Assembly (NCBI GenBank): GCA_020631855.1
Contig: JACKGU010000001.1
Coordinates: 103,601-167,600 of the forward strand
Reading direction: 5' to 3'
DNA length: 64,000 nt
Source: Candidatus Nomurabacteria bacterium
GTDB lineage: Bacteria; Patescibacteriota; WWE3; UBA101185; UBA10185
Part shown: piece by piece, positions 42,164 through 59,232 of the stretch
Numbering within the stretch: position 1 is the first letter of the stretch
Layout of the letters: each line of letters starts with the position of its first letter
Position numbers and translations under genes: made by a program
The notes under the pieces: model-generated
Seen by the model: only the letters and a program-made list of their open reading frames with translations
Told to the model about the DNA's origin: nothing
Databases searched by the model: none

Positions 42164-42225
42164 ATTTTTTCAGTTAGTTTCTTAAATTAACTATTTATAA
42201 GTTTATATTAATCGAATATGGAGTG

Positions 42226-43698: not shown

Positions 43699-43816
43699 TG
43701 CTATAATAATAATTCACCGAGCTCCTTTAGTCACTATATTCTTATATTTCTGGGGTATCCGCCTTATTTAGAAGAAAAAAATTCATGTAGTAACGAGGAA
43801 GTGCGCTGTATTTAAT

Positions 43817-43938
43817 TTATAATTTCATTACTTAAAACTGCTTGCGTAAGCTAGTAGACGTAGTTTACCTTACATGTTGGGTTTTGCAACGCAAATAAAT
43901 TACAGCAACCCTCCTGTGTGGGCTGGTTGGCTTTAAAA
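43817..43938 (+). repeat. Intergenic roughly 125 bp repeat element, copy F (between two minus-strand genes)
   Basis: TTATAATTTCATTACTTAAAACTGCTTGCGTAAGCTAGTAGACGTAGTTTACCTTACATGTTGGGTTTTGCAACGCAAAT... Confidence 0.7.
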
Positions 43939-43951
43939 AAATAACTTCGTA

Positions 43952-44944
43952 TTAGCTAAGTTTATTCTCTTTTTTAAAGGATAGCGCCGCGCGCCAAAGT
44001 ATAAATAGTGACAGTAGAACGCCAAGCAGTACTGTGAGTAGGAACTTCAAAGGAATTAGCCAAAAAGTAGTATCTGCTTCCATGGTGTTAAGCCTTTCGG
44101 TCGTGCCGTATTTTAGCAATATATTTGCTTGAATTTTTCCCATTGGCGGAACTAAGCCCCTTTTCGTTATTGTTGTTTTTTCTGAAAAGCTTCTATCCGG
44201 TGATTCCGGTAGCATTGTACTTTGGCTTTGATTAAAGATGGTATTAATTGGAGGAAAGAACCTGTTACCCTCAATAAATATTGCTCCGGTGGGTATGATA
44301 TGAACATTTCCTGAGTTTTTAATAGTTGTGGAAAATTCTATTTCAGGATTTTCAACGAAGTAAAATTTTTTATTTGTTTTAAAATCTACAATAGACGCAT
44401 TTTCTTCAATTTCTCCCGGAACAGTAGTTAGTATTAAGCTTGCCACTCTACCTATTGTTCCTACTCTTGAGCCTTCGTTTGCGTCAGGTTTTTCCGATTG
44501 AACAAATATGGCAGCGTAGTGCCCTCCTGTAGTTGCATTTTGCGGAACAGTAATGGTATAAGGTATTTCTATTGTTTCATTATCTTCAAGTTCTACTACG
44601 TCTTGCGCAAATGTGATCCAGGTTCGAAGAGAGTATGTGTTAGAGCCCTCCTCTTCCTGATTTTCTATAAAAGTAGGTGTTCCGTCGTTAGATAGAACTA
44701 AAAAATCTCTTGCGTAAATATATAAAGTTTTTTTAGATCCTGAGTAGTTTCCCAGCCTGAGTTTTTTTTCGTAGGTTTTTCCTTGTTCTATATTAAAGTT
44801 ATTCTTAGCAGGGGACAGTTCTATGTTTAAAGCCTGTGCGTTAGCTGTTTTATATGCGATTGAGGCAAAAGATGCCGAAATAATCACACCGATTAAACAT
44901 GTGAGCAGAAAATCTTTAGACTTAGCTATATCTTTAATATTCAT
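43952..44944 (-). CDS. Cell-surface protein with an N-terminal signal peptide and a C-terminal transmembrane anchor plus short basic tail (architecture reminiscent of DUF916/DUF3324 Gram-positive surface-complex proteins)
   Basis: The N-terminus is 'LLTCLIGVIISASFASIAYKTANA'. The C-terminus is 'FWLIPLKFLLTVLLGVLLSLFILWRAALSFKKENKLS'. Confidence 0.4.
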   Translation of the reverse strand: MNIKDIAKSKDFLLTCLIGVIISASFASIAYKTANAQALNIELSPAKNNFNIEQGKTYEKKLRLGNYSGSKKTLYIYARDFLVLSNDGTPTFIENQEEEGSNTYSLRTWITFAQDVVELEDNETIEIPYTITVPQNATTGGHYAAIFVQSEKPDANEGSRVGTIGRVASLILTTVPGEIEENASIVDFKTNKKFYFVENPEIEFSTTIKNSGNVHIIPTGAIFIEGNRFFPPINTIFNQSQSTMLPESPDRSFSEKTTITKRGLVPPMGKIQANILLKYGTTERLNTMEADTTFWLIPLKFLLTVLLGVLLSLFILWRAALSFKKENKLS

Positions 44945-44965
44945 ATCAAAATCATTTTACGGCAG

Positions 44966-45928
44966 TTAGTTGTTAGTTGCTACAGTAACCGTGACTATTT
45001 GATCGTATTCTCCGGCAACTGTAGTACCGGCAATGCTGGCTTTGTAGGTTAGTGTAAGCGTGGCCGCGTTTACAGCCGCAGTACTGTTAGCAATATTGGT
45101 GGCAGATGTAGGAACAGCATCGTCTCCGGAGTCAAATGGAGATTGCGCTGTCAGCCCCGATACGGCTGTTGATATTCCGTACTCTTCTGATCCTGCGGTC
45201 ACAGTTCCGTCAGCAACGTCGTTTATATCATTGCCGCTGCCATCGTTTAGCGCTGCATCCGCAGATATTTTAAGTTGTACGCCGGTAACGTTATTTGAAT
45301 TTACTGTGTAGGTTTGGGAGGCTGAGCTCACGGCTGTGGTTGTCAAAACCCCTAAATCCATGGTGACGTCATTTACCGCTAGGTTTACAAAAAGAGGCAC
45401 GGAAGCAGTTACAGTAGTAGTGTTAGTATTTGTTTTTATTCCTACACCATAGTCAAGAGAATTATTTGTTGAATCGGTTGTTGTTATAGCAACAGATTGT
45501 TGAGCATAAGTTGTTGAAGTGTAAGATGTAAGTCCGTCAGTCATTGCAACTGTTATGGCTGTAGAACCTGATATAGAAGCATCGAGCGTTATTGTAATTG
45601 TGTTTGCCGTGCTGTTGTTTGATCTGGTTGGTGTAGTTTGGCCTGTAACTGTTATGTTTGTTCCGGAAGCATTTATTGTTGCTTGAGTAGGAAAGGTTAG
45701 AATAATTTTGTCTCCGCTCGATAAAGCTGTTGTGTTGGTGAATACAACAGTAGTAGTTCCGGGGGAAGCAGACTGTGCCCATGTTCCATCGGATATTTTT
45801 GTTGCCGCCTGTACTTTGCCACCAAAAACAATCAGCATTAGTATATTTATATTTATTAAATAAGCAATTAAATAGATGGGAATGGTTTTAGCTAAAGACC
45901 TTTTTGTTAGTATTTTTCGGCAGTTCAT
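44966..45928 (-). CDS. Thr/Ser-rich secreted surface protein with a conserved C-terminal 'KASIAGTTVAGEYDQIVTVTV' strand motif
   Basis: A signal-anchor is present. The composition is roughly 35% Thr/Ser/Ala/Asn. It is paralogous at the C-terminus to the divergently transcribed 46036..47154 gene. Confidence 0.45.
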   Translation of the reverse strand: MNCRKILTKRSLAKTIPIYLIAYLININILMLIVFGGKVQAATKISDGTWAQSASPGTTTVVFTNTTALSSGDKIILTFPTQATINASGTNITVTGQTTPTRSNNSTANTITITLDASISGSTAITVAMTDGLTSYTSTTYAQQSVAITTTDSTNNSLDYGVGIKTNTNTTTVTASVPLFVNLAVNDVTMDLGVLTTTAVSSASQTYTVNSNNVTGVQLKISADAALNDGSGNDINDVADGTVTAGSEEYGISTAVSGLTAQSPFDSGDDAVPTSATNIANSTAAVNAATLTLTYKASIAGTTVAGEYDQIVTVTVATNN

Positions 45929-46035
45929 GGGCCCTTTCTTATTACGTAGAAAATTAGAACTTTTAGCCTGTAATAATTACATACAATGCTAGAGATTGTT
46001 TTTTGTTTTGTCAAGTTTAATCTATAATAGAGCAT

Positions 46036-47154
46036 ATGCTCGGAAATTATGAAAAATCAAGGACAACTGCTATTACTAATAGAAATGTAATTCAGGACGT
46101 TAACTTTAGCAGGCGGGCTATTGTTTTATCTGTTTTCATTTTTTTATACTTTTTCTTATTAAGTAGTTTCTTATCGATTAGTGCTCAGGTACCCGCAAGC
46201 TCGAGTTTTGTAATTAAGGGTGAAAATGTCTCTCCTTCCGGAGGTGTGGGCTCTACCCCCAATTTCATGTTAAATGCAGATTTAAGCCCTTTCTCTCAAA
46301 GCCCTGCTGATGCCAGCTCATTTAAAGCTTATATAGGTTATAATCCTCGTATACAGGCTAATACACCTTACGAACCAACTCTAGACAATGCTACCGGTCA
46401 ATACTACGATAGGTTACTACTTACCATTGACCCTTCGGGAAACCCCACAGATACTCTTTTTGCTGTTGCGATATCGGCAAACTCCTGGAGTACCACATAC
46501 TATGTACAAAACGATAACACTCTAGCATTGTCTTTAGGCCCTGAGGATTACAGAACTTATGCGGGTTGGGGAGGATCGGGAGGCACCCTGATCTTAGGGC
46601 TGAGCCCTTCCTCTTCTTATGTTGCCAAAGTTAAGGCCTTGAACGGTGATTTCACTGAGACTTTATATGGCCCGGAATCTTCTGCTGTAGAAACAGTGGT
46701 GCCTTTTATTAGTTTGTCTGTTTCTTCTTCTGTTTCGGAATTTGGGGTTTTAAGTGCAAATGAAATTAAATCGGCCTCTTCTGTCGATCTTTCTGTTACT
46801 ACAAACGCGGAGTCAGGTTATTCTCTCTCGGTAAATGGTACGGGCAGCGGTGTTCAGCCCGGACTGTACAATGGGGTGGGTAATGTCATAGTTTCTCAAG
46901 ATACTGTTCTTTCAGTTGGTACAGAAGGTTACGGAGCTCAGGGCTCCTCAGGTACTGCAACGATTTCTTCCAAATACGATTTAGCTGGTGACTTTGTAGG
47001 CAGCTTGGATCTATCTCCTCAGGAGCTTGCCTCCAACTCTGTGCCGGTTTCTGGTGATAGTTCTACCATAACTTTCAAAGCTTCAATTTCCGGAAATACC
47101 GTTGCCGGAGAGTATGAAGACATTGTTTATTTCACTATCTCCCCATCTTTATAA
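46036..47154 (+). CDS. Thr/Ser-rich secreted surface protein, a paralog of 44966..45928 (C-terminal 'KASISGNTVAGEYEDIVYFTI')
   Basis: An N-terminal transmembrane or signal sequence and the shared C-terminal motif are present. Confidence 0.45.
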   Translation: MLGNYEKSRTTAITNRNVIQDVNFSRRAIVLSVFIFLYFFLLSSFLSISAQVPASSSFVIKGENVSPSGGVGSTPNFMLNADLSPFSQSPADASSFKAYIGYNPRIQANTPYEPTLDNATGQYYDRLLLTIDPSGNPTDTLFAVAISANSWSTTYYVQNDNTLALSLGPEDYRTYAGWGGSGGTLILGLSPSSSYVAKVKALNGDFTETLYGPESSAVETVVPFISLSVSSSVSEFGVLSANEIKSASSVDLSVTTNAESGYSLSVNGTGSGVQPGLYNGVGNVIVSQDTVLSVGTEGYGAQGSSGTATISSKYDLAGDFVGSLDLSPQELASNSVPVSGDSSTITFKASISGNTVAGEYEDIVYFTISPSL

Positions 47155-47271
47155 TTTCGTTACTTAAAACTACTTGTGTAAGCTAGTAGATGTATTTTAT
47201 CCAACATGTTGGGCTTTGCAACGCAAAGAAATTACAGCAAACCATCTGTGTAAGCTGGTGTTGGTTGGTAG
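47149..47271 (+). repeat. Intergenic roughly 125 bp repeat element, copy G (overlaps the TAA stop of the upstream gene)
   Basis: TTATAATTTCGTTACTTAAAACTACTTGTGTAAGCTAGTAGATGTATTTTATCCAACATGTTGGGCTTTGCAACGCAAAG... Confidence 0.75.
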
Positions 47272-47363
47272 TTATTGCTAAGTATACACGCAGGAACAAA
47301 CCATTTCTCATAGTTTGACATGGAGATTGCCTATTTTACCAGTGCTCCCCAAGTCGCATTTTT

Positions 47364-50300
47364 CTATTCAGATTTCAATACCCACCAGTTGAATGAAGAA
47401 TCTTCGTCTATTGTCTTTGATATGCTTACTTTGAAACTCTCGCTCTCTGTAATCTTACTAACATACAGTTGTTGTCCTTTGGTGTCTGTGGTTGGGGTTA
47501 TAAATACTATCGCATCTTTACTAATGCCCCTCACCTCTACTGTTACAGAACTTTCCCCACTCTTTATCGCGCTTTGTCCTATTGTTTCGCTATTTGAGAG
47601 ATACTTATAATCTTGCGCTGTTATGGTTTTAGCTTCAACCTCTCCCTCAATACGAACTGTTCCATCTGCTTCAAATAGAATAGCGCCGTCCATAAAATCT
47701 ATGTTTCCGGACAGATTCTTTTGGAAGTATATGGTTTGTAGTTCACATAGTTCTTCATTTAGGCTACCTGTTGCTTTGGTGTAACATGAAGGTCCAATAA
47801 CACTAAGCTCGTTTGTTAGAGACTCAAGTCTAATGCTTCCAACTTGAAGATCTTTGGTAATTGTTAAACCACCAAGTGTTGTATCTCCTGTAACTAGGAA
47901 GTTTGCATCAAGGGTCATTGTTGTAGTACTGTCTTGAGTTTGAGTAGTAAGTCCAAGAGCTTCTGCGAATCCTTTAAAGGATTCATATGTATCTTTAAGC
48001 TCTTGAATCTTGGAATCAATGTATGTGGTATCTTCAGGTGTGACTTCGATTGTATTAGTTTGAGTTAGATTGGTTTGAGTTTCCGTATCAACTTCAAGCT
48101 GTGCTAATTGTTCTTGCAGATCCTCGATCTTCTGCTCTTGTTCTTGGATACCTTTAATAAGGTAGGGGACTAGATGGTGGTATTCAATTGACCATGTGTT
48201 TGCGGGATCATCAGGTTTATCAACTACCTGCGGTAGATACTCATATACATCTTGAGCAATAAGCCCTGTTGCTCTTCCTCTATCTGCCCATTTTGTTCCT
48301 TCTTTCCAATCAAAATCAACAACTTCAAAACGATTAATTAATTCAAGTGCATTAAGATTTGATGTTTCAATATTATCTTTAAGTCTTCTATCTGATGCTG
48401 TAACGTTAATAGAAGCATTACCGATATACATAGTAGTTGAACCTGAACCATTTGACGAGTCATCAAGTAGATTAGCATCGACCGCGTTACCTATATGAAA
48501 GCCTCCTCCTGCATATACAATATCTCCGACATCTAAGAAATCTCTAAAGTAGCTATAGCCGTTTGAAACTCCAACATGAAACACTTCATCATAGATATCT
48601 CTAACCACAAAACTCTTACCTGATGTTCCTCCTGCATCAAGACGTAAATATCCATCTCCGCTACCGAAGCTTTCTGTATAGAGAGAGGTGCTCTTGCCGT
48701 AGCTGTCTTCCAGTTTAAAACTTCCAAGAACATGCAATTCGGCGCTAGGGCTAGTGGTTCCGATTCCAACGACCCCCTTTAGTAGTGTAGTAAGAATGCT
48801 GTCGTTTCCTAGTACAACGCTGTTGCTTCCGGCTCCGATAGCCCCAAATCCTATTACTACCTCATTTTCTCCGCCATCTGCTAATGCCTTAGTTTGCGAC
48901 CCGAGATACAAGGATGTAATGCTAGTTGAATTAGGACTTGCGCCGTCTGCCAAATATGTTCCTGCAAAGACCCCAATAGCGGTGTTCCAGTACCCTGTTG
49001 TGTTGTGATACAAAGAAGCTACGCCTGATGTTGTGTTGTAACTACCTGTAGTATTTTCGTATAGAGCTTGTTCCCCAAATGCGCTATTGCTTGATCCCGT
49101 AGAGTTTGTATATAAAGTTTCAAAGCCGACCCCGGCATTACTTTGTCCGGTTAAGTTAGAGTAAAGAGTTCGGTAGCCTGTAGCTATGTTTTGACCCCCC
49201 GTGCTGTTTGCTCGGAGAGCCTGGTGGCCGAGGGCAACGTTATAATATCCGTAAGTGTTTAAATATAAAGCTTCAGATCCGAATGCAATATTATAGTTTC
49301 CGGTAGTGTTTGAGGACAGCGCGTAAGCTCCAAAGGACGAGTTTTGACTGCCCGAAGTGTTTGCTTGCAAAGAGAAGTAACCAACTGCTGTGTTGTCAAT
49401 CCCTGTCGTATTTGTTGTTAACGAAAAGTATCCAACCGCTGAGTTTTGGCTTCCTGTAGTGTTTGAGTATAGAGCGTAAGATCCAAAGGAGGAGTTGTAG
49501 TTACCTCCTGTGTTTGTATATAAAGCCCCGGAACCTACAGCTGAATTTCCGTTCCCACTAACGTTTGAAAATAAAGCTTGATAACCTAAGGCTGCGTTGT
49601 CGCTGCCGGTAGTATTGTACCTTAAAGCCGTATAACCAACCCCAACATTATAGTTCCCTGTAGTGTTTGTACGAAGCGCATTGGTACCAAATGCAGAGTT
49701 ATAGCTTCCTGTTGTATTTTGTCTTAGCGTATAGGGCCCGACTGCGGTGTTGTAGCTCCCACTAGTGTTTTCATATAAAGCGAAATATCCCGCTGCTAGG
49801 TTATAGTCTCCTGTGGAGTTTGAGTACAAGGTAGAAGTGCCTAAAGCTGAGTTATAGCTTCCGGTAGTGTTTGAGTATAAGGCACTTCTTCCTATTGCAA
49901 CATTTGAGTTTCCTGTAGTGTTTGAATACAAAGCAGAATATCCAAATGCAGAGTTATAGCTCGCTGTAGTGTTTGAGTACAGTGCGCTACTCCCTACAGC
50001 AACATTAAAGCTTCCCGAAGTATTAAAGATTAGCGCGTCTCTACCGGTGGCAATATTGTCGGTTCCGACAGTATTTCTAAACAAAGCATTTGTTCCTGTC
50101 GCAATGTTATTGCTCCCGGTGGTGTTAAAATATAGGGCGGATATGCCTGAGGCAATGTTATAGTTGCCTGTAGTATTGGTGTATAAAGTAGTTCCGCCTA
50201 TGGCAATGTTGCCGGTTCCAATAGTGTTGTAATACATAGAATTGTTTCCTACAGCAACGTTGCTTCCCCCCGTAGTGTTTCTTCGGAGCGCGCTGGGACC

Positions 50301-52937
50301 AAATGCATAGTTATAACTTCCCGTTGTATTGGAAGATAAAGAGTCATTTCCTAGAGAAATATTACCTGTCCCTGTAGTGTTTGAGAATAAAGCTAGATAA
50401 CCGGCTGCAATGTTATTGCTGCCGCTTGTGTTTGAATATAGCGCGAAAGCTCCGGCGGCAATATTATAATTTCCTGTAGAGTTGGAGTATAGAGCACTAT
50501 TTCCGAATGCAGTGTTGAAACTTCCTGTAGAGTTAAAGTACAAAGCATTGTAACCCGTTGCAACGTTAGAGTTTCCTGTGGTGTTCGAGTAGAGCGCATA
50601 AGATCCGGTAGCAATATTAGCAGGACCTGAAGTATTGCTAGCCAAGGCATAGTCTCCGGTAGCAATATTATAATTTCCTGTAGAGTTAAAGTATAGAGCA
50701 TAAAATCCCGCAGCAAAGTTATAGCTTCCTGTGGTGTTTGAGTATAGAGCGTGATCTCCTGTGGCAATATTATTGGCCCCTGAAGTATTTGAATATAGAG
50801 CACTTCCTCCTACAGCAATGTTCCGATTTCCTGTAGAGTTAAAGTATAGTGCGTTGTAGCCTGCAGCAATATTGTTTCCTCCCGTAGTGTTAAAATACAA
50901 TGCGTAGTTACCTAGAACCAGGTTGTAACTCCCTGTGGTGTTGGAAGCTAGTGCATGTTTACCTAAAGCCACGTTGCTGACTCCTGTGGTGTTGTTGAAC
51001 ATAGCAAAGGGGCCAAAGGCTAAATTGTCATTACCGGTAGTGTTTGAATATAGGGCCGAGCTTCCAAAGGCTGAGTTATAGTTTCCGTTAGTGTTTGAAT
51101 ATAGGGCGGCGGCTCCTAGGGCGGAGTTATAGTTTCCGCTGTCAATATTGCTCAGGGCCCCTGCACCTACTGCTGTATTTGAGCGACCATACGTTAAAGT
51201 ACTCAGTGCGTTATAGCCCAGCCCGGTGTTATAGCTCGCAATACTAGCATCCGGAGAACCCTGTCCTAGAGTAAAATTTCCGCTATTCTCCCCTACAAAT
51301 GTGTTTTGTCCTGTATTACCTTCCCAGTGATAATTGTGGATAAAACTTGCGGACTCTTTATATATGACTCCTGTAGTAGGGGAGCTTGTATTTTCCAATA
51401 CCATTGCTCCTACTAAATCTAGCGCTTGCGCAGGGGCAATTTTTCCTATCCCCACATTACCGCTTGAGTCTATGACAAAAGGTGAAGTATCTCCCGCGGA
51501 GTCGTTCACTAAAAACGATACCCCTGTTCCTGTATTTGTAAGTGAGAACTGATTCGCTCCTGTAATAGCTATATCTGTCGAATCGTCGAGGGTCATCGCA
51601 TCTTTAAATTCAGTGAAGTCTAAGCTGTCGGGACCGACAGAGGCAGCCCCTACAGTTGTCCAGGCCAGAGTACCATTACCGTCATTTGCAAGTACATAGC
51701 TGGCGGCCCCGGCTTGTGTGGTTGGCCATGCGTAAGTAACATTATTTATTTTAATAATGTCCCCTGAGGCATTAACTTGAAATTGAGATGCTGTGCCAAC
51801 CGAAAGAGGGGACTGTGGGTTATTTGTATTTATTCCCAAGGCATGTGTTGCGCTGTTATAAAATAGATACGCTGTGTCTTGCATGAAACCGCTTCCCGAA
51901 CCAAAAATTATGCCGCCTTCATCTGCAGTAGATCCTTCTAAAAAATTTAGTTCTTCGGCGGTAGCATTTACATTTGTTCCTCCTATACTCCAGGTGCCTC
52001 CTATGGCCAAAGTTCCGTTTAAATTAAAATTATCTTCGTACGTGAAGTCTGGCACCAGATTATTACCGTCTATAATGTTGTCTGCAAGAGCATTCGCATT
52101 TAGAGTTCCAATAATGTCGCCTGTAAGTTCCAACGAGTTTTCAAGAGAGTTTTTAGAGACCGCATCTATTGCCAGCAAGCCGTTTATTGTCGATGCTCCG
52201 GTAAAGTTTATGGTTGTAGTTGAGACGCCCCCTTCAACTGTTGCCGGGCCGGTGATATTTAATGAGCTCAATATGTTTGTTGGTACATTTAGAGTAAATC
52301 TGAGTTCAGGAGATCTGGCTCTTGCGGCTAAAACCTCTGCCTCTTGTCGTTGTATTCTTTGAGTGCCTTTTTCATCTCCCCGCTTATAGTTTGCTATATA
52401 TTTTTTTATTGATAGTGCACTTTGTATATTTTTATCGGGAGTTTCGCGGCTTAGATTATTGAAATCTTTTGCAATTGTTATTGCCAACAAAGCAGCACCT
52501 ATTACAACTGAGGCCAAAATAGCTTTTTTAAATACATTGTTTTTTTGTGTTTTTGCCACTGCTCGTTTTAAGGGGCCCTGTTTAAATTTAACCTTTTTCA
52601 CAATATTTTTAGCTTCTGTTTTAGCAGTTGATTCTGTTGGTTTGCTAGCACTGCTTTCGCTAAGATTTTCTTTGGGCCTTGTATTTATGGGAACATATGC
52701 AAGGTTTTCGATCGGGTTTTTTGTCGTATTAAGTCTGTGATTTTTATAATTTATTATGTCATTGACATTAAAACGCCTGTATCCGTTAGCATCTCTGTTC
52801 TCTATGATTATTGCTTGTTCTGCTAACCTTCTTACGGTAGAGGAGGAGACCCCCAGTATTTTAGCAGCCTCCGAAACAGATAAGAGATTGTTTGATTCAG
52901 AATTGTTTGATGTGTTTTTAATATTTTGGGCAGACAT
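47364..52937 (-). CDS. Giant (1857 aa) protein with an N-terminal excisionase-type HTH, a transmembrane helix, GIGT collar motifs, about 40 copies of a 17-aa 'ALYSNTTG..N.A.G' beta-helix repeat, and a C-terminal peptidase-S74 chaperone domain
   Basis: 'LLSVSEAAKILGVSSSTVRRLAEQAIIIENRDANGYRRFNVNDII' matches HTH_17. The transmembrane helix is 'AILASVVIGAALLAITIA'. A long periodic Gly/Asn/Thr repeat array follows. The C-terminal 360 aa are identical to giant protein 1 through the 'SDRRLKDNIE' CIMCD motif. Confidence 0.75.
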   Translation of the reverse strand: MSAQNIKNTSNNSESNNLLSVSEAAKILGVSSSTVRRLAEQAIIIENRDANGYRRFNVNDIINYKNHRLNTTKNPIENLAYVPINTRPKENLSESSASKPTESTAKTEAKNIVKKVKFKQGPLKRAVAKTQKNNVFKKAILASVVIGAALLAITIAKDFNNLSRETPDKNIQSALSIKKYIANYKRGDEKGTQRIQRQEAEVLAARARSPELRFTLNVPTNILSSLNITGPATVEGGVSTTTINFTGASTINGLLAIDAVSKNSLENSLELTGDIIGTLNANALADNIIDGNNLVPDFTYEDNFNLNGTLAIGGTWSIGGTNVNATAEELNFLEGSTADEGGIIFGSGSGFMQDTAYLFYNSATHALGINTNNPQSPLSVGTASQFQVNASGDIIKINNVTYAWPTTQAGAASYVLANDGNGTLAWTTVGAASVGPDSLDFTEFKDAMTLDDSTDIAITGANQFSLTNTGTGVSFLVNDSAGDTSPFVIDSSGNVGIGKIAPAQALDLVGAMVLENTSSPTTGVIYKESASFIHNYHWEGNTGQNTFVGENSGNFTLGQGSPDASIASYNTGLGYNALSTLTYGRSNTAVGAGALSNIDSGNYNSALGAAALYSNTNGNYNSAFGSSALYSNTTGNDNLAFGPFAMFNNTTGVSNVALGKHALASNTTGSYNLVLGNYALYFNTTGGNNIAAGYNALYFNSTGNRNIAVGGSALYSNTSGANNIATGDHALYSNTTGSYNFAAGFYALYFNSTGNYNIATGDYALASNTSGPANIATGSYALYSNTTGNSNVATGYNALYFNSTGSFNTAFGNSALYSNSTGNYNIAAGAFALYSNTSGSNNIAAGYLALFSNTTGTGNISLGNDSLSSNTTGSYNYAFGPSALRRNTTGGSNVAVGNNSMYYNTIGTGNIAIGGTTLYTNTTGNYNIASGISALYFNTTGSNNIATGTNALFRNTVGTDNIATGRDALIFNTSGSFNVAVGSSALYSNTTASYNSAFGYSALYSNTTGNSNVAIGRSALYSNTTGSYNSALGTSTLYSNSTGDYNLAAGYFALYENTSGSYNTAVGPYTLRQNTTGSYNSAFGTNALRTNTTGNYNVGVGYTALRYNTTGSDNAALGYQALFSNVSGNGNSAVGSGALYTNTGGNYNSSFGSYALYSNTTGSQNSAVGYFSLTTNTTGIDNTAVGYFSLQANTSGSQNSSFGAYALSSNTTGNYNIAFGSEALYLNTYGYYNVALGHQALRANSTGGQNIATGYRTLYSNLTGQSNAGVGFETLYTNSTGSSNSAFGEQALYENTTGSYNTTSGVASLYHNTTGYWNTAIGVFAGTYLADGASPNSTSITSLYLGSQTKALADGGENEVVIGFGAIGAGSNSVVLGNDSILTTLLKGVVGIGTTSPSAELHVLGSFKLEDSYGKSTSLYTESFGSGDGYLRLDAGGTSGKSFVVRDIYDEVFHVGVSNGYSYFRDFLDVGDIVYAGGGFHIGNAVDANLLDDSSNGSGSTTMYIGNASINVTASDRRLKDNIETSNLNALELINRFEVVDFDWKEGTKWADRGRATGLIAQDVYEYLPQVVDKPDDPANTWSIEYHHLVPYLIKGIQEQEQKIEDLQEQLAQLEVDTETQTNLTQTNTIEVTPEDTTYIDSKIQELKDTYESFKGFAEALGLTTQTQDSTTTMTLDANFLVTGDTTLGGLTITKDLQVGSIRLESLTNELSVIGPSCYTKATGSLNEELCELQTIYFQKNLSGNIDFMDGAILFEADGTVRIEGEVEAKTITAQDYKYLSNSETIGQSAIKSGESSVTVEVRGISKDAIVFITPTTDTKGQQLYVSKITESESFKVSISKTIDEDSSFNWWVLKSE

Positions 52938-53077
52938 AAAACTTTATCAAATACCGCTATGTAGCAATTTGATAACCAATCTAATAATAAGTAAATAATA
53001 GTTCGATGTCAAATGATTATATCTGTCAAAAAGGTCAAGTTATTGACTTGTGATGCCTGTTTGCGTATGCTTTTTAT

Positions 53078-53932
53078 ATGCAGGTTCTGCCCGGAAACTT
53101 TGATTTTTTTTCAAGTTTAATATCCAATTCGAAAAGTAGCTTATTTCGTATTATATTACAGTATTTCATAGTATCTCTTATCTATTTTATTTCTACATAC
53201 AGTGTCATATACTCGCAAACAGTTTTGGATAATGGGGTAGGTATTTCAGTGGAAGTTCCTTACAGCAGTATTCAGGGATCTTTTCCCGATCCGGGATCGA
53301 TCGTTAGCTTTCGAGACGGTTTGTATTCGTTGTCAAGCGCTGAATATGATAGTAATGTCATAGGTGTAATACCTTCCGATTCTGTTATTACGATTAACGA
53401 TGATTCTTTATCAAGCAGCATTTTTGTCATGACAAGCGGTGAAACTTTCATAAAAGTATCTGGTGCGGGTGGAAATATTTTAGAGGGAGATTATATAACA
53501 TCTTCGGATGTTTCGGGTGTGGGCAAGAAGGCAGAGACAAGCGGGCAGGTGGTTGGTATCGCCTTAGAAAGTCATGATTTCGCATCTACGGAAGAGGTGT
53601 ACGATTTATATTCTTATGTAACTATCCGCTCTGTGTATTTCGATGATGCCCTAAAAGTAAATTTAATGGAGCTTTTACAAAATGGTTTTAGAGTTCCGTA
53701 TTTAACTCCCTTAACAACCTTAAGATATATTCTTGCCTCTTTAATAGCCGTTTTTTCTTTTATAGGTGGTTTGAGGCTGTTTGGTAAAACATCAACTAAC
53801 AGCATTGAGGCTTTAGGGAGAAATCCTTTGGCAAGTAGCGTTATTAGGTCTACCGTAGTTTTTAACTTTATACTGACCGCAGCAATCATATTAGCAGGTT
53901 TATCGATTTCTTATTTAATTTTAGTATTATAA
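53078..53932 (+). CDS. Membrane protein at the atpB/atpE position. Its C-terminal two-helix hairpin resembles an F0 c-subunit (loop 'ALGRNPL', compare ARQPE) and also carries 'GLRLFGK' (compare the a-subunit stator motif LRLFGN), but no carboxylate is present
   Basis: The genomic position is immediately upstream of atpF-H-A-G-D-C. Hand alignment to the E. coli and PS3 c-subunits places Ala/Thr where the essential Asp/Glu sits. A possible internal start at ATG 53666 would give an 89-aa hairpin protein. Confidence 0.35.
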   Translation: MQVLPGNFDFFSSLISNSKSSLFRIILQYFIVSLIYFISTYSVIYSQTVLDNGVGISVEVPYSSIQGSFPDPGSIVSFRDGLYSLSSAEYDSNVIGVIPSDSVITINDDSLSSSIFVMTSGETFIKVSGAGGNILEGDYITSSDVSGVGKKAETSGQVVGIALESHDFASTEEVYDLYSYVTIRSVYFDDALKVNLMELLQNGFRVPYLTPLTTLRYILASLIAVFSFIGGLRLFGKTSTNSIEALGRNPLASSVIRSTVVFNFILTAAIILAGLSISYLILVL

Positions 53933-53936
53933 GAGT

Positions 53937-54671
53937 ATGCCCATTTATACTTTGATACAAAATAATAATATCTGGATCCTATTTGTTTTTGAAATTATTA
54001 TTCTTTGTTTATTCTTTTCAATAATATACAAGGCTATAAAATTTTTATTAGTCAGGGCCGAGCTGTTTGGTTCGTCTGATTTAGAGAAAAGTTTAAGTTA
54101 CGATAAAGCCTCTAAAATTATTGAATACGCTCAGCGACGGGCTATAAAAATTTTAGCCAGGGCTAGTATTGACGCCGAAAAGAAATTGCGCGGAGCTACG
54201 AAAGTTAATAAAGATCTCCAGGAAGAGCTTTTCCAGAATTTAAATAGGGTTTATGTAAGTCATATAAAAGAGTTTGAAGGGCTGTCTGAATCTTTGCTGT
54301 TGAATTACAAAGCCGTACTGCAGAGGGAATCTGCGGTTGGAGCCCAGGTATTAGAGGAGATGGGTGCTAGTGTTGAGGAGATGGTTAAAGCCGAAGGTAA
54401 AGAATTTAGAAAAAATCTGGAAAGCCGAACTTTGTTGGCCGAGGAGAAGTTATCCAATGAAATTGACGAAGAATATAAAAAAGTTAAAAAAGAAATCGAA
54501 TTATATAAGGAAAGTCGTCTAAAGGAGGTGGAAGAGAAAGTTAATGCTCTCCTATATTCCATAATTAGTCAGTATATTAGTAAAGATATATCTGTAACCA
54601 TTCATGAGGAGTTAGTAAAAGCTCATTTTGATCGTTTAGTTCAAGAGTTACAACTAAAGAAAAAAGTATGA
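53937..54671 (+). CDS. atpF: F0 subunit b-like (N-terminal transmembrane helix plus long charged coiled coil)
   Basis: The call rests on architecture and on position between the c-like gene and delta. Confidence 0.5.
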   Translation: MPIYTLIQNNNIWILFVFEIIILCLFFSIIYKAIKFLLVRAELFGSSDLEKSLSYDKASKIIEYAQRRAIKILARASIDAEKKLRGATKVNKDLQEELFQNLNRVYVSHIKEFEGLSESLLLNYKAVLQRESAVGAQVLEEMGASVEEMVKAEGKEFRKNLESRTLLAEEKLSNEIDEEYKKVKKEIELYKESRLKEVEEKVNALLYSIISQYISKDISVTIHEELVKAHFDRLVQELQLKKKV

Positions 54672-55126
54672 AAATCCCGTCTATTTATACAAAAGAAACA
54701 TTAGATCAAATAGTTTTTGATCTCTCTTCTTTAAGACTTTCTTACAACCCAAATGATGAAAAAGGGTTTAAGCAGAAGTTGTTAACTAAGTTTTCAAGCC
54801 AATCAGCTGCGTTTTTTTTGGAAGTTTTGGAAAATGTTCCCTTCGAGGATATTCCGAAAATATTGGATGAATTTGAAAAGTTCCTTGGTTCTCTTCGTGT
54901 AGTAACTTTGGTTTTAGCATTTGCCCCGCGTCCCGAGTTTATACAGGAGATTCATAACCGTGTTTCTAAAATTGTGCCGGAGGCTTGTGTATTGGATATA
55001 GTTGTTGATGGTGCCGTGGTAGGAGGTTTTTCCATAGATTTTTCGGGCAAGTTTTTCGATTTTACCCTTGCTCAAGATCTTATCAAGAGAGATCTATCGG
55101 AAGAGCTCAAGTCTTGTAGCCCATGA
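54668..55126 (+). CDS. atpH: F1 delta (OSCP) subunit-like
   Basis: The C-terminal 'LDIVVDGAVVGGFSIDFSGKFFDFTLAQDL' is a delta-like motif. The gene sits immediately before atpA. Confidence 0.55.
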   Translation: MKIPSIYTKETLDQIVFDLSSLRLSYNPNDEKGFKQKLLTKFSSQSAAFFLEVLENVPFEDIPKILDEFEKFLGSLRVVTLVLAFAPRPEFIQEIHNRVSKIVPEACVLDIVVDGAVVGGFSIDFSGKFFDFTLAQDLIKRDLSEELKSCSP

Positions 55127-56588
55127 AAAATTATAATTTTTATCTAAAAGAATATGGCGAAATAGGTCATGTGGAAAAGATTGTTACACCTATTGTTGAA
55201 GTTGCAGGTTTGCCTTCTTGTACTATAAGTGAGATGGTTGTTTTTGAAGACGGCTCTTTAGGAGAGGTTATTGCGGTAGATCAAGAAAAGGCAACCGTAC
55301 TTTTATATGAGCATCGTAATTTGGACGTAGGTCAGAGAGTCGCTAGGACCGGCTCCGGGCCGACCGTAAAATATTCAGAAAGCCTTTTTGGTAGCATGGT
55401 TGACTCGTTTGGAGATGAAATTGCATTAAGCACAAAAAGCAAAAGTTTAGAAAGCGATTATGTTGATTTGCAAATTTACACTTCAGCTTCTGATATATCC
55501 ACCCGAAGTGTTGTTTCTGAGCCATTTATTACTGGGGTTACGCTTATAGATTTGATGACGCCTCTGGGACGAGGTCAAAGGGAGTTACTAATTGGAGATA
55601 GAAAAACAGGTAAAACCTCTTTTGCATTGCAACTACTTCTTGCGCAAAAAGACAAAGAGTCGGTTAATATATATGCTTGTATAGGAAAAAATAAGTCAGA
55701 GGTTCAGTACGTAAAAGATTTTTTGATTAAAAACGATCTGCTCAAAAAAACAATAATTGTCGCCTCTTTTTCTACTTCAGCAGTAGGTAAAATATATTCT
55801 ACTCCTTACGCTGCAATGAGTATTGCAGAAAAACTCTCCAAAGAAGGAAAAAACGTCGTTCTGGTGCTGGATGACATGTTAAGCCATGCTAAATACTACA
55901 GAGAGATAAGCTTGCTGGCTAATATTTTTCCGGGTAGAGATTCTTATCCGGGAGATATGTTTTACGTTCACGCCAGGCTTTTAGAAAGGGCAGGTAATTT
56001 TAACAACGGCACATCGATTACGTGCTTTCCAATAGTTTCTACTGCAAACGATGAACTTTCCGGTTATATTGAGACAAACCTTATGTCAATGACTGACGGA
56101 CATCTCTTTTTTGATAGGGGCAGGTTTTACGAAGGTTTGCGTCCGGCTGTGGATCCTCTATTGTCAGTAACACGAGTTGGGAGACAGACTCAAAATTCTT
56201 TGAGGTGGGCTATAAATAGAGAATTAAACAGTTTTTTTGTGTTACACAAAAAAACAGGGGCCTTTATTCATTTTGGAGCCGAAGTTAGCGAAGGTGTAAA
56301 AGCTACTATTGGAATGGGGGACCGTTTGAATATTTTGTTTGCACAGCCCGCCCAGGAATCATACACGCTAGAACTACAAATGCTAATGCTTGTTCTTGTT
56401 TGGAGTAATTATTTAAGCAATATTTCCGGAAACGATGCTCTTAAAAAGAGACTTATTGAAATAAAAGAGTTTTATGAGAGCGATAAAAATTTTCAAAATA
56501 TAGTTTTGGCAGCAGTTGCTGAATCGAAAAACTTTAATGAATTAATAAGGAATATAATTGGTGCAGTTGCCAAGTTTGGAATAAAATA

Positions 56589-56589
<1 letters not shown>
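55123..56589 (+). CDS. atpA: F1 ATP synthase alpha subunit
   Basis: 'GRGQRELLIGDRKTGKTS' (Walker A) and 'PGRDSYPGDMFYVHARLLERAG' are present. Confidence 0.9.

Positions 56590-59232
<2,643 letters not shown>

What the first reader, a model, noticed from the sequence alone, without database searches (positions are those of the whole stretch)
52640..52975. Giant fibre protein 2 begins with a cytoplasmic excisionase/MerR-type HTH followed by a single transmembrane helix, giving a DNA-binding domain fused to an extracellular fibre roughly 1700 aa long; a perfect 9 bp inverted repeat lies just upstream
The N-terminus 'LLSVSEAAKILGVSSSTVRRLAEQAIIIENRDANGYRRFNVNDIINY' is a textbook HTH_17 (excisionase-family) DNA-binding domain. 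It is followed by a basic linker and one hydrophobic helix ('AILASVVIGAALLAITIA') in a single open frame (ATG 52937). This is the ToxR/CadC-like topology: a cytoplasmic DNA-binding head, a membrane span and an outside domain, here attached to a giant adhesin-like fibre. Immediately 5' of the start codon (52942-52975) lies TTATCAAAT-N14-ATTTGATAA, a candidate operator for autoregulation. I know of no described family in which a tail-fibre-like surface appendage is fused to a membrane-tethered transcription factor, so this could couple surface contact (for example with a host cell) directly to gene regulation.
Basis: partly seen in the sequence, partly recalled or inferred. Interest (0 to 1): 0.8.

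Follow-up and report, generated by a model that had tools for sequence, protein, structure and literature searches.

The report
Surface fibre with built-in DNA-binding head
A giant tail-fibre-like surface protein of a tiny Patescibacteria (CPR) bacterium carries a DNA-binding domain on its cytoplasmic end and a conserved binding-site-like repeat in front of its own gene. This design recurs across the phylum and suggests the fibre controls its own production, but it appears undescribed.

Summary
Window 47364-52937 (-) is one 1857-aa ORF from a Candidatus Nomurabacteria MAG. It encodes a MerR-type winged HTH (aa 16-72), a basic 62-aa linker and one TM helix (aa 135-159). Outside the cell come about 1700 aa of fibre: 41 x 17-aa repeats and a Peptidase_S74 chaperone. 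The perfect 9-bp inverted repeat lies at 52944-52975, between a near-consensus promoter and the ATG.

It is not a one-off or an assembly artefact. A profile search found 82 cluster representatives with 1-3 N-terminal HTHs followed by one TM helix, 25 of them 1000-4725 aa. The taxonomically labelled ones are almost all Patescibacteria.

The repeat is conserved. Six distant relatives of the same HTH subtype carry TAYYAAR-N16(19)-YTTRRYA at the same leader position, with compensatory changes. Other HTH subtypes carry their own motifs: TGGACA arrays (22/22) and TACCTA (6/8, including 4/4 loci fetched to test the prediction).

The best reading is a membrane-tethered regulator that acts on its own promoter, with ToxR-like topology but different parts. 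DNA binding, the identity of the binder and any contact sensing remain untested. I found no description in the searchable literature.

The parts
47364..52937 (-). Single ORF of 1857 aa: HTH, linker, TM helix, giant fibre, S74 chaperone and a C-terminal domain
   Evidence: The identical protein is on NCBI GCA_020631805.1 JACKGT010000005.1, named 'tail fiber domain-containing protein [Candidatus Nomurabacteria bacterium]'.
52722..52892 (-). MerR-type winged helix-turn-helix, aa 16-72 (Pfam core aa 18-65)
   Evidence: Pfam MerR 30.4 bits and HTH_17 27.0 bits. AF2 pLDDT 78-88 with H21-28, H32-40, wing E46-48/E54-57 and H58-73. Foldseek matches RacA, BldC and MerR-family proteins. R36, R48 and R54 are invariant and R37 nearly so across 14 family members.
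52536..52721 (-). Basic, low-complexity cytoplasmic linker, aa 73-134
   Evidence: 14 K+R against 5 D+E. pLDDT is below 50. Linker length across the family has a median of 55 aa and a range of 13-148 aa.
52461..52535 (-). Single transmembrane helix, aa 135-159 (hydrophobic core aa 139-156)
   Evidence: It is the only segment with Kyte-Doolittle mean >=1.8 over 19 aa in the whole protein. It is modelled as a helix at 135-160. The positive-inside bias is shared by the family.
52278..52337 (-). Conserved extracellular juxtamembrane motif EVLAARARSPELRFTLNVPT, aa 201-220 (family consensus VLA[AG]-x6-10-[FL]xFNVNVP[ST]xF)
   Evidence: V202 is nearly invariant and L203 invariant in A2. The motif occurs in many members and loci. 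It is also present in the integrase-SAM-headed variant P0031.
48984..51044 (-). Array of 41 x 17-residue repeats (NTTGxxNxAxGxxALxS), aa 632-1318: the fibre shaft
   Evidence: 39 motif hits are spaced by exactly 17 aa, or 34 aa where one copy is degenerate. The composition is rich in G, S, T and N.
48222..48395 (-). Peptidase_S74 intramolecular chaperone domain, aa 1515-1572, with the S-D-R-R-L-K motif at aa 1515-1520
   Evidence: Pfam 50.7 bits against a cut-off of 22. It aligns to the solved tail-fibre chain 8jov across the 'ASDxRLK' motif.
47631..48770 (-). 1140-bp block 98.4% identical to 36251-37390 in the other giant fibre gene (covers the S74 domain and the coiled coil)
   Evidence: blastn; protein comparison.
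52944..52975 (.). Dyad element TTATCAAAT-N14-ATTTGATAA (core TATCAAA-N16-TTTGATA at 52945-52974): candidate operator, or a 5'-terminal leader hairpin
   Evidence: The repeat is perfect, 9+9 bp. It is conserved in L003, L008, L009, L061 and L064 with N16, and in L019 with N19. 84.5% of pair cells are paired against 35-54% in slid controls, and 7 of 12 pairs show double-sided changes. The covariance model finds no second copy in the window.
52984..53012 (-). Sigma-70-like promoter: -35 TTGACA, 17 nt, -10 TATTAT (11/12 matches). The dyad starts 9 nt after the -10.
   Evidence: The same -35/17/-10 layout with 8-12 nt to the dyad occurs in five other subtype-A loci.
52928..52933 (-). CTGCCC motif at +5..+10 of the ORF, a nucleotide-level motif seen family-wide near the start codon
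   Evidence: 27 of 34 family genes have it within 130 nt upstream of the HTH codons, against a background of 0.02. It occurs in different reading frames or before the ATG.

Best explanation
What it is. The gene encodes a type-II (N-in, C-out) membrane protein. A MerR-type winged HTH sits in the cytoplasm. A flexible basic linker of about 60 aa and one TM helix tie it to an extracellular fibre of about 1700 aa. The fibre resembles a phage tail fibre and is presumably trimeric. It folds with a C-terminal S74 intramolecular chaperone.

Family. The protein belongs to a large family that appears specific to Patescibacteria. Members carry 1-3 such HTHs and one TM helix, fused to ectodomains that range from a small SH3_3 domain to fibres of 4700-5500 aa.

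Likely mechanism (inferred). The HTH binds the dyad element TATCAAA-N16-TTTGATA. This element starts about at the transcription start of its own gene, so the fibre represses its own promoter. That would be product-level negative feedback on fibre number.

Why this could work in cis (inferred). The HTH is the first part of a 5.6-kb gene to be translated. The nascent chain would stay tethered next to its own promoter while the rest is transcribed, translated and inserted. Feedback could therefore act in cis, and the locus would be held at the membrane.

Shown here: the architecture, its recurrence, the predicted fold, the predicted topology, the conserved subtype-specific leader motifs and their position relative to predicted promoters.

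Inferred: DNA binding by this HTH, the sign of regulation, trimer formation and any response to fibre state.
For: Architecture and fold.

Recurrence: the profile search gave 13,592 hits at E<1e-3. Among the top 150 representatives, 82 have an HTH followed by a TM helix: 28 with one HTH, 52 with two, 2 with three. 25 of them are at least 1000 aa, up to 4725 aa. Independent loci come from Saccharibacteria-, WWE3-, Levybacteria- and Microgenomates-labelled MAGs and from metagenomes. Ectodomains are fibre-like and carry S74 or Peptidase_G2 chaperones.

Cis-elements:
- Subtype A shares the layout -35 TTGACA /17/ -10 / 8-12 nt / 30-nt dyad / 7-20 nt / ATG in 6 loci, plus L019 with looser spacing.
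- The dyad shows covariation.
- The covariance model finds it only at these genes in 0.52 Mb.
- Subtype B has T[GA]GACA boxes in 22 of 22 loci, mean 3.6 per 150 nt against 0.15 background. They are often direct arrays with a 10-11-nt period, which cannot form hairpins.
- Subtype C has TACCTA in 6 of 8 loci, including 4 of 4 loci fetched specifically to test the prediction, where chance is about 0.05 each.
- No motif crosses between subtypes.

Parallel design: an unrelated DNA-binding head, the integrase SAM-like domain (1-2 copies), occupies the same position before the TM helix of related giant proteins. In P0031 the post-TM motif is also the same.

Precedents from established knowledge: ToxR and CadC bind DNA while membrane-integrated. 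BldC, a MerR-like HTH without a dimerisation domain, binds direct repeats cooperatively. GlnR and TnrA bind dyads.
Against: - There is no experimental evidence for DNA binding.
- The subtype-motif association could partly reflect shared ancestry of gene and leader.
- The A-type dyad begins at about +1 to +6 of the predicted transcript and its inner spacer is often self-complementary. It could equally be a 5'-terminal RNA hairpin. The fixed N16 spacing puts the half-site centres 23 bp apart, which is unlike classical MerR operators.
- MerR proteins normally act as dimers through a coiled coil that is absent here. S74 fibres are trimers, so the stoichiometry with a dyad is unclear.
- Soluble HTH_17/MerR paralogues exist nearby and could be the real binders: window 23743-24858, and 93-aa genes divergent from C-type genes in L115 and L117.
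- The window hairpin is not more stable than shuffled sequence (z = -0.47). This argues against the RNA reading but says nothing for the DNA reading.
- Promoters and transcription start sites are only predicted.
Confidence: 0.5

Rival explanations
1. The leader elements act at the RNA level. They would be a 5'-terminal stem-loop or protein-binding repeats that stabilise or gate translation of a very long mRNA. The cytoplasmic HTH would then have another job, most plausibly tethering DNA or the nucleoid to the envelope under the fibre. This is how the MerR-like domain of B. subtilis RacA anchors the chromosome to the pole.
For: - The A-type dyad starts 8-12 nt after the -10, so at the very 5' end of the transcript, and fills most of a 45-55-nt leader.
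- Compensatory changes keep the pairing.
- The right arm abuts AGG/AAG, a possible ribosome-binding site.
- RacA is the best structural match.
- 5'-terminal hairpins are known to stabilise mRNAs (established knowledge).
Against: - The outer boxes are conserved in sequence, not only in pairing, across proteins that are about 30% identical.
- C.A-type mismatches (5) are as common as G.U-type (4), so there is no RNA-specific wobble tolerance (pair table).
- The window hairpin is no more stable than shuffles.
- Subtype B and D motifs are direct arrays with a 10-11-nt period that cannot pair.
- Motif type tracks the HTH recognition helix.
- No Rfam family matches.
Confidence: 0.22
2. The leader motifs are DNA operators, but a different, soluble regulator binds them, for example a small HTH_17/MerR paralogue. 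The fibre's HTH would either compete for the same sites or be a non-specific DNA or membrane anchor.
For: - Soluble HTH_17/MerR-type genes lie near several family genes: a 71-aa gene in L002, 93-aa genes divergent from C-type genes in L115 and L117, and a 371-aa conserved HTH_17 protein in the window at 23743-24858.
- B-type leaders carry a second conserved repeat, GATAAGATTA x2, upstream of the -35. This implies at least two binding activities.
Against: - No soluble HTH gene is adjacent to the window gene or to most A- and B-type loci.
- The motif type covaries with the fused HTH's recognition helix.
- It does not explain why a DNA-binding head is retained on the fibre across the phylum and replaced only by another DNA-binding domain.
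Confidence: 0.15
3. The HTH is a protein-protein interaction module, as in RodZ, whose cytoplasmic HTH binds MreB. It would position or cluster fibres and would not bind DNA.
For: RodZ gives a precedent for an HTH-TM-ectodomain protein whose HTH binds a protein (established knowledge). No DNA-binding data exist for this protein.
Against: - The arginines typical of DNA-contacting positions in the recognition helix and wing are conserved: R36, R48 and R54 invariant and R37 nearly so.
- The fold matches DNA-bound MerR-type domains.
- Tandem HTH duplications are common.
- An integrase DNA-binding domain replaces the HTH in some relatives.
- Subtype-specific leader motifs would be left unexplained.
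Confidence: 0.06
4. Artefact: a small HTH gene has been fused to a fibre gene by a sequencing or assembly error, or the fibre is really translated from an internal start (for example GTG at about aa 113) as an ordinary signal-anchored protein.
For: An internal GTG precedes the basic stretch and the TM helix and would give a canonical signal anchor (sequence).
Against: - There is no stop between the HTH and the TM helix in the window, nor in more than 60 independent assemblies from NCBI, ENA, JGI and Logan with very different linkers.
- The promoter, leader and ATG are conserved upstream of the HTH.
Confidence: 0.02

Closest known systems
ToxR / CadC / TcpP membrane-integrated one-component regulators
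   Same: N-terminal cytoplasmic DNA-binding domain, one TM helix and an extracytoplasmic C-terminal domain. They bind promoter DNA while in the membrane.
   Different: Those use an OmpR/PhoB-type winged helix (Trans_reg_C), which is absent here. They have small periplasmic sensor domains and regulate other genes. Here the head is MerR-type, the outside part is a structural fibre of 1700 aa or more, and the only candidate site is at the protein's own gene.
BldC (Streptomyces) and other minimal MerR-like HTH proteins; excisionases (Xis, HTH_17)
   Same: The same winged-HTH fold without the MerR coiled coil or effector domain (BldC TM-score 0.7-0.8, rmsd 1.0-1.2 A). BldC binds variable numbers of direct repeats cooperatively, which resembles the B- and D-type box arrays.
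   Different: BldC and Xis are small soluble proteins. Here the domain is the head of a membrane protein and is often duplicated in tandem.
RacA (Bacillus subtilis chromosome anchor)
   Same: It is the best structural match to the HTH (5i44). It is a MerR-like domain used to attach DNA to a fixed envelope site.
   Different: RacA is soluble, reaches the membrane through DivIVA, and binds about 25 GC-rich ram sites near the origin. Here the link to the membrane is covalent and only one site per locus is seen.
Phage tail fibres/spikes with a C-terminal S74 intramolecular chaperone, and Bdellovibrio MAT (mosaic adhesive trimer) fibres (PMC10769870)
   Same: G/S/T/N-rich repetitive shaft, an S74 autoproteolytic chaperone with the S...K motif, mosaic exchange of C-terminal cassettes between paralogues, and use by a cell rather than a virion for surface recognition (MAT).
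   Different: None of these has a cytoplasmic DNA-binding head or an N-terminal TM anchor of this kind. NF053851 (Bdello_MAT_N) does not hit this protein, and hits fibre 1 only weakly.
RodZ
   Same: The order HTH - single TM helix - extracytoplasmic domain.
   Different: RodZ has an XRE-type HTH that binds MreB, not DNA, and a small periplasmic domain.

Membership tests
MerR family transcriptional regulators | N-terminal MerR-type winged HTH (PF00376/PF13411) | tested here: met
   PF00376 scores 30.4 bits against a cut-off of 28.2. PF13411 scores 18.9 against 21.6, so it is below cut-off. Fold matches to HiNmlR, SoxR, CueR and GlnR.
MerR family transcriptional regulators | Long C-terminal coiled-coil dimerisation helix plus an effector-binding region | tested here: not met
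   After helix 58-73 the model is disordered up to the TM helix. No further cytoplasmic domain is detected.
MerR family transcriptional regulators | Operator dyad inside an over-long (19-20 bp) -35/-10 spacer | tested here: not met
   The predicted spacer is 17 nt, and the dyad lies 9 nt downstream of the -10.
Excisionase / HTH_17 family | Match to PF12728 and TIGR01764 above their cut-offs | tested here: inconclusive
   PF12728 scores 27.0 bits, exactly at the cut-off of 27. TIGR01764 scores 21 bits against 28.8. Xis structures are weaker fold matches than RacA, BldC and MerR proteins.
ToxR-like membrane-integrated regulators | OmpR/PhoB-type winged-helix DNA-binding domain | tested here: not met
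   No Trans_reg_C hit in Pfam.
ToxR-like membrane-integrated regulators | N-in, single-pass topology with an extracytoplasmic C-terminal domain | tested here: met
   This is a prediction only. There is one hydrophobic segment and a basic pre-TM linker. The family shows a positive-inside bias in 50 of 74 members against 13 reversed. No signal peptide precedes the HTH.
Peptidase_S74 (intramolecular chaperone) tail-fibre/spike proteins | S74 domain with the conserved Ser...Lys cleavage motif near the C-terminus of a fibrous protein | tested here: met
   PF13884 scores 50.7 bits against a cut-off of 22, at aa 1515-1572. 'TASDRRLK' aligns with 'SASDERLK' of 8jov. Autocleavage and trimerisation were not tested.
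Bdellovibrio MAT chimeric fibre family | NF053851 Bdello_MAT_N N-terminal domain | tested here: not met
   No hit for this protein. The neighbouring fibre 1 scores 35.5 bits against a cut-off of 60.
Patescibacterial HTH-TM-ectodomain proteins (unnamed family defined here) | 1-3 N-terminal MerR-type HTHs, then exactly one TM helix 13-148 aa later, then an ectodomain | tested here: met
   The window protein has one HTH and a 62-aa linker. 82 representatives share the layout.
Patescibacterial HTH-TM-ectodomain proteins (unnamed family defined here) | Subtype-specific repeated motif between the promoter and the start codon, and a CTGCCC motif at the start codon | tested here: met
   The A-type dyad is at 52945-52974 and CTGCCC at 52928-52933.
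RacA-like chromosome anchors | MerR-like HTH plus a C-terminal coiled coil that binds DivIVA; many ram sites near the origin | tested here: not met
   Only the HTH fold is shared. There is no coiled coil. A single site was found in 64 kb. The genome-wide site distribution is not testable with the sequence available.

The most novel reading that the evidence does not exclude
The fibre is a contact sensor. Engagement, tension, shedding or regulated proteolysis of the extracellular fibre on meeting a host cell would change occupancy of the operator, or would release the HTH. That would switch the episymbiont's gene expression in a bacterial, Notch-like, one-protein path from surface contact to the promoter. 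A related reading is that the nascent N-terminal HTH represses its own promoter in cis while the giant ORF is still being transcribed and inserted, which would meter initiation to one transcript at a time.
Probability: 0.15. Interest if true: 0.92.

Novelty: new variant of a known kind. Interest (0 to 1): 0.74.

Why it matters
Patescibacteria (CPR) make up a large share of bacterial diversity and mostly live attached to other cells. How they sense and regulate attachment is largely unknown, and they encode few conventional regulators.

A phylum-wide family places a sequence-specific DNA-binding head on the cytoplasmic end of surface fibres and other ectodomains. Matching conserved sites sit at the genes' own promoters. 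This would be a simple, previously unrecognised regulatory design: structural surface proteins that count or report themselves directly to the chromosome.

It also gives concrete, testable operator-protein pairs for organisms with almost no known cis-regulatory code: TATCAAA-N16-TTTGATA, TGGACA arrays and TACCTA dyads.

Finally, it warns annotators that 'MerR family transcriptional regulators' of 2000-5500 aa are membrane-anchored fibres.

Tried and rejected
- The word-index homology search with only the N-terminal 294 aa returned nothing, not even the protein itself. The index apparently samples few words from long proteins. The full-length query and the exhaustive profile search worked.
- The 14-sequence alignment A2 was too diverse for locus scanning, so A1 was used instead.
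- Single-motif enrichment of TTATCAAAT in the window gave 4 copies against 1.7 expected, which is not significant.
- RNA folding of the window leader gave z = -0.47.
- Rfam gave only chance-level hits in the leaders.
- The covariance model of the dyad found no further copy in the window. The only extra hit was weak (E = 0.17), upstream of the divergent neighbour in L009. No regulon could therefore be defined from the sequence available.
- A shared operator across all homologues was rejected, because the motifs differ by HTH subtype.
- Eight literature searches found no description of the fusion. Text searches in two papers also found nothing on it: a Patescibacteria review and a giant-gene preprint.
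- AF2 gave no usable model outside the HTH, so the linker, the fibre base and oligomerisation were not modelled.
- An SPase-type cleavage at the post-TM 'VLA|A' motif was considered and set aside, because it lies 40-60 aa beyond the TM helix.

Full report
**1. What is in the window**

The finding lies at the 5' end of a single ORF, 47364..52937 on the minus strand, 1857 aa. The start is ATG 52937. An in-frame TAA sits 7-9 nt upstream, inside the right arm of the inverted repeat, so no start is possible further upstream.

The identical protein is on a 520-kb contig of NCBI assembly GCA_020631805.1. It is named 'tail fiber domain-containing protein [Candidatus Nomurabacteria bacterium]', so the organism is a Patescibacteria/CPR MAG.

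Evidence for each part:
- **HTH.** Pfam places MerR (30.4 bits, cut-off 28.2) and HTH_17 (27.0 bits, cut-off 27) at aa 18-65. An AlphaFold2 model is confident only for aa 16-72 (pLDDT 78-88). It shows strand, helix 21-28, helix 32-40, a beta-hairpin wing at 46-57 and helix 58-73. Its best PDB matches are the RacA DNA-binding domain, HiNmlR, BldC, SoxR, GlnR/TnrA and Xis proteins.
- **TM helix.** Hydropathy finds exactly one TM segment in the whole protein, aa 135-159. The model shows it as a helix.
- **Linker.** The 62-aa linker before the TM has 14 K+R against 5 D+E. By the positive-inside rule the HTH is therefore cytoplasmic and the remaining 1700 aa are outside.
- **Fibre.** Peptidase_S74 matches at aa 1515-1572. 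The ectodomain contains 41 strict 17-residue repeats at aa 632-1318. The S74 intramolecular chaperone carries the S-D-R-R-L-K motif, which aligns with a solved tail fibre, 8jov. About 285 aa follow it.

The inverted repeat TTATCAAAT / ATTTGATAA is perfect and lies at 52944-52952 and 52967-52975.

**2. Is it real and recurrent?**

A full-length homology search recovered other giant proteins with the same N-terminus:
- P0005, 2715 aa.
- P0010, 2294 aa, Patescibacteria.
- P0021, 2213 aa, with two HTHs.
- P0119, 1585 aa, MerR_1 plus S74.

An exhaustive profile search used the segment from the HTH to just past the TM helix against 1.84 billion cluster representatives. It gave 13,592 hits at E<1e-3. 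Among the best 150:
- 82 have 1-3 N-terminal HTHs followed by a single TM helix, with a median gap of 55 aa and a range of 13-148 aa.
- 25 of these are 1000-4725 aa.
- Many shorter ones are fragments. For example, a 1464-aa 'partial' clusters with a 5517-aa protein.

Where sources give names, they read 'MerR family DNA-binding transcriptional regulator' or 'helix-turn-helix domain-containing protein'. All but two are labelled Patescibacteria group bacterium. One is labelled only 'bacterium' and one 'Candidatus Acidoferrales bacterium'.

Scans of species-representative genomes and of metagenomes found the architecture in MAGs labelled Saccharibacteria, WWE3, Levybacteria/Levyibacteriota, Microgenomates and Patescibacteria group. 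Hits in Bacillus, Flavobacterium and similar genomes were small proteins without a TM helix. A few MAGs labelled Gammaproteobacteria or Acidoferrales also carry the architecture. I suspect mislabelling but did not check.

Other family features:
- **Ectodomains.** They are rich in G, S, T and N. Several end in S74 or Peptidase_G2 chaperone domains. A complete short class of 320-350 aa has two HTHs, one TM helix and SH3_3.
- **Post-TM motif.** A conserved motif, VLA[AG]..[FL]xFNVNVP[ST]xF, lies 40-60 aa after the TM helix in many members. In the window protein it is at aa 201-220.
- **Positive-inside bias.** K+R is higher before than after the TM helix in 50 of 74 members and lower in 13.

A frameshift or fusion artefact is therefore excluded.

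**3. The inverted repeat is a conserved leader element**

Taken alone, a 9-bp perfect repeat is not remarkable in AT-rich DNA. The comparative evidence is what makes it significant.

*Subtype A.* These HTHs have the recognition helix ..GVS[SP]S[TS][LV]RR[LFY]... The loci are the window, L003 (P0010), L008 (P0191), L009 (WWE3), L061 (P0137), L064 (P0175) and L019. Their proteins match the window N-terminus at only about 23-35% identity where this was measured. All seven carry TAYYAAR-N16-YTTRRYA (N19 in L019).

The layout is the same in six of them:

| Element | Value |
|---|---|
| -35 | perfect TTGACA |
| spacer | 17 nt |
| -10 | 4-5 of 6 matches |
| gap to dyad | 8-12 nt |
| dyad | 30 nt |
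| gap to ATG | 7-20 nt |

The scanning tool independently found the window promoter, with 11 of 12 matches.

On an alignment of the seven elements:
- The 12-pair dyad is paired in 84.5% of cells, against 35-54% when the partners are slid.
- 7 of 12 pairs show changes on both sides, against 3.6 +/- 1.4 in shuffles (8 of 500 shuffles reach the observed value).

A covariance model searched over 0.52 Mb finds only these seven sites. The one exception is a weak hit about 45 nt upstream of the divergent neighbour gene in L009.

*Other subtypes carry different motifs in the same place.*
- **Subtype B** (..GVSTKTLRRW..). It has T[GA]GACA boxes in 22 of 22 loci: mean 3.6 per 150 nt, against a background of 0.15. 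They form direct arrays with a 10-11-nt period, or two direct copies plus one inverted.
- **Subtype C** (two HTHs..GVSIDT[IV]RRWDKSG..). L052 and L107 suggested a TACCTA/TAGGTA box. I fetched four further C-type loci to test this, and all four have it (L114-L117). The chance of one or more copies per 170 nt is about 0.05.
- **Subtype D** (L030, L084). It has three direct YTGATAA repeats right after the -10.

No motif occurs in the leaders of another subtype.

Perfect repeats of 9 bp or more within 80 nt of the start are also commoner at family genes (5 of 22) than at control ORF starts (6 of 218).

**4. How it most likely works**

The anatomy is that of a membrane-integrated one-component regulator. 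The comparative data show that each HTH subtype travels with its own repeated motif, placed at or just downstream of the predicted transcription start of its own gene.

The simplest reading is sequence-specific binding of the fused HTH to its own leader, which would give negative autoregulation. Three further points support DNA binding:
- R36, R48 and R54 are invariant and R37 nearly invariant, in the recognition helix and the wing.
- Tandem duplication of the head is frequent.
- In related giant proteins (P0014, P0031, P0033) the head is replaced by one or two integrase N-terminal SAM-like DNA-binding domains, again followed by one TM helix. In P0031 the post-TM motif is also the same.

Direct-repeat arrays with a helical period recall BldC, a MerR-like HTH without a dimerisation domain that binds direct repeats cooperatively. 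Dyads recall GlnR/TnrA. Both comparisons rest on established knowledge and on the fold matches.

By inference, each fibre in the membrane contributes repressor heads. Fibre number would then feed back on transcription. The N-terminal head is made first and is tethered through ribosome, mRNA and RNA polymerase, so it could act in cis during synthesis of the 5.6-kb message.

None of this is shown experimentally.

**5. Rivals**

- **RNA element.** The A-type element would occupy the very 5' end of the transcript, and its inner spacer is often self-complementary. A 5'-terminal stabilising or translational hairpin is therefore a serious alternative. The HTH would then be a RacA-like DNA-to-envelope tether. 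Five points argue against it:
  - The box sequences are conserved, not only their pairing.
  - C.A-type and G.U-type mismatches are equally frequent.
  - The window hairpin is unremarkable in stability.
  - The B and D arrays cannot pair.
  - Motif type tracks the HTH subtype.
- **Soluble binder.** A soluble paralogue may be the true binder.
- **Protein interaction.** A RodZ-like protein-interaction role is unlikely, given the conserved arginines and the displacement by an integrase domain.
- **Artefact.** Excluded by recurrence.

**6. Comparison with known systems**

It works like ToxR/CadC in topology but is not a member, because there is no OmpR-type domain. Its head is MerR-type by Pfam and by fold. 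It lacks the MerR coiled coil and effector domain, and the MerR promoter geometry. It is closest to minimal MerR-like proteins such as BldC and to the RacA head.

Its ectodomain belongs with S74-chaperoned tail fibres. Functionally it is nearest to cell-borne fibres such as the Bdellovibrio MAT proteins (PMC10769870), but the MAT N-terminal model does not hit it.

Eight literature searches and text searches in two papers found no description of a DNA-binding head on a surface fibre, nor of membrane-anchored MerR-type proteins in Patescibacteria. The searchable library is limited to open-access papers and preprints, so prior description elsewhere cannot be excluded.

**7. Verdict**

The family assignment needs correcting. 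DNA binding and contact sensing are untested.

I rate it a new variant of a known kind: a membrane-integrated transcription regulator built from a MerR-type head and a giant trimeric fibre. It defines a large Patescibacteria family with subtype-specific cis-elements. Interest is 0.74.

Noticed in passing
window 52928-52933 (-); also 31139, 53087 (+) and the starts of 35984-42163, 42226-43698 and 44966-45928 (-): A CTGCC(C) motif lies within +5..+17 of the start codon in 6 of 42 window genes, where 0.5 is expected. Five of the six are in the surface-protein cluster at 35984-53932. Across the HTH-TM family, CTGCCC lies near the start in 27 of 34 genes (background 0.02). It occurs in different reading frames, or just before the ATG in subtype B (CTGCCCTATG), so it is a nucleotide-level signal of unknown function.
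   Followed up: partly
window 47631-48770 and 36251-37390: The two giant fibre genes share 1140 bp at 98.4% identity, covering the S74 chaperone and the coiled coil. Their shafts and last ~90 aa differ. This suggests recent gene conversion or cassette exchange between paralogues.
   Followed up: partly
window 53078-53932 (+), with 53937-58996: The divergent neighbour is a 284-aa protein with an N-terminal extracellular-looking domain and a C-terminus resembling ATP synthase subunit c (weak NCBIfam hit). ATP synthase-like genes follow it. The pairing of HTH-fibre gene with this gene and atpH/atpA is conserved in L009 (WWE3, 41% identity) and L002 (34%). Its predicted -10 ends 7 nt before the ATG, which suggests a leaderless mRNA.
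   Followed up: partly
window 46036-47154 (+) and 44966-45928 (-): Two neighbouring genes give weak, below-cut-off hits to NF058581 'CPR_Pam_pilin_C' (Pam pilus system pilin subunit). The fibre genes may therefore sit in a surface-appendage cluster.
   Followed up: no
window 23743-24858 (+); L003 11880-12791 (-): A soluble 371-aa protein has an HTH_17/BldC-like head, a long acidic linker and a conserved C-terminal domain. An orthologue lies next to the P0010 locus. It is a possible soluble partner or competitor of the membrane-bound heads.
   Followed up: no
P0014, P0015, P0031, P0033 (relatives, not in the window): These giant fibre proteins have a cytoplasmic head made of one or two phage-integrase N-terminal SAM-like domains instead of the MerR HTH, followed by one TM helix. 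P0031 keeps the same post-TM motif (VLG..LVFNIPTNF).
   Followed up: partly
L002 4822-4855; L014, L017, L020, L063, L066, L067, L016, L018, L029, L072 and others: Subtype-B leaders, and L016, carry a second conserved repeat, GATAAGATTA x2, immediately upstream of the -35. This implies a second binding activity at these promoters.
   Followed up: no
window 35984-42163 (-): Fibre 1 (2059 aa) has a plain signal anchor and no HTH. Its N-terminal region weakly matches the Bdellovibrio MAT fibre N-domain (35.5 bits against a cut-off of 60). P0014 and P0033 have a similar base.
   Followed up: no
L061 1-759 and 1501-2825: Two HTH-headed giant genes lie in tandem on one contig: a 1795-aa MerR plus Laminin_G_3 protein, followed by P0137. 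Some genomes therefore carry several family members side by side.
   Followed up: no
P0138 aa 838-1096: One family member carries an intein splicing domain inside its ectodomain.
   Followed up: no
L115 57-338 (-), L117 21-302 (-): A 93-aa soluble MerR/HTH_17 gene is transcribed divergently from the C-type (2 HTH - TM - SH3_3) genes.
   Followed up: no
L015, L016 (OZ246394.1, 1.61 Mb), L018; P0257: Some family members sit in MAGs labelled 'uncultured Gammaproteobacteria bacterium' or 'Candidatus Acidoferrales bacterium'. Their leaders look like those of Levybacteria members, so the labels may be wrong. This was not verified.
   Followed up: no
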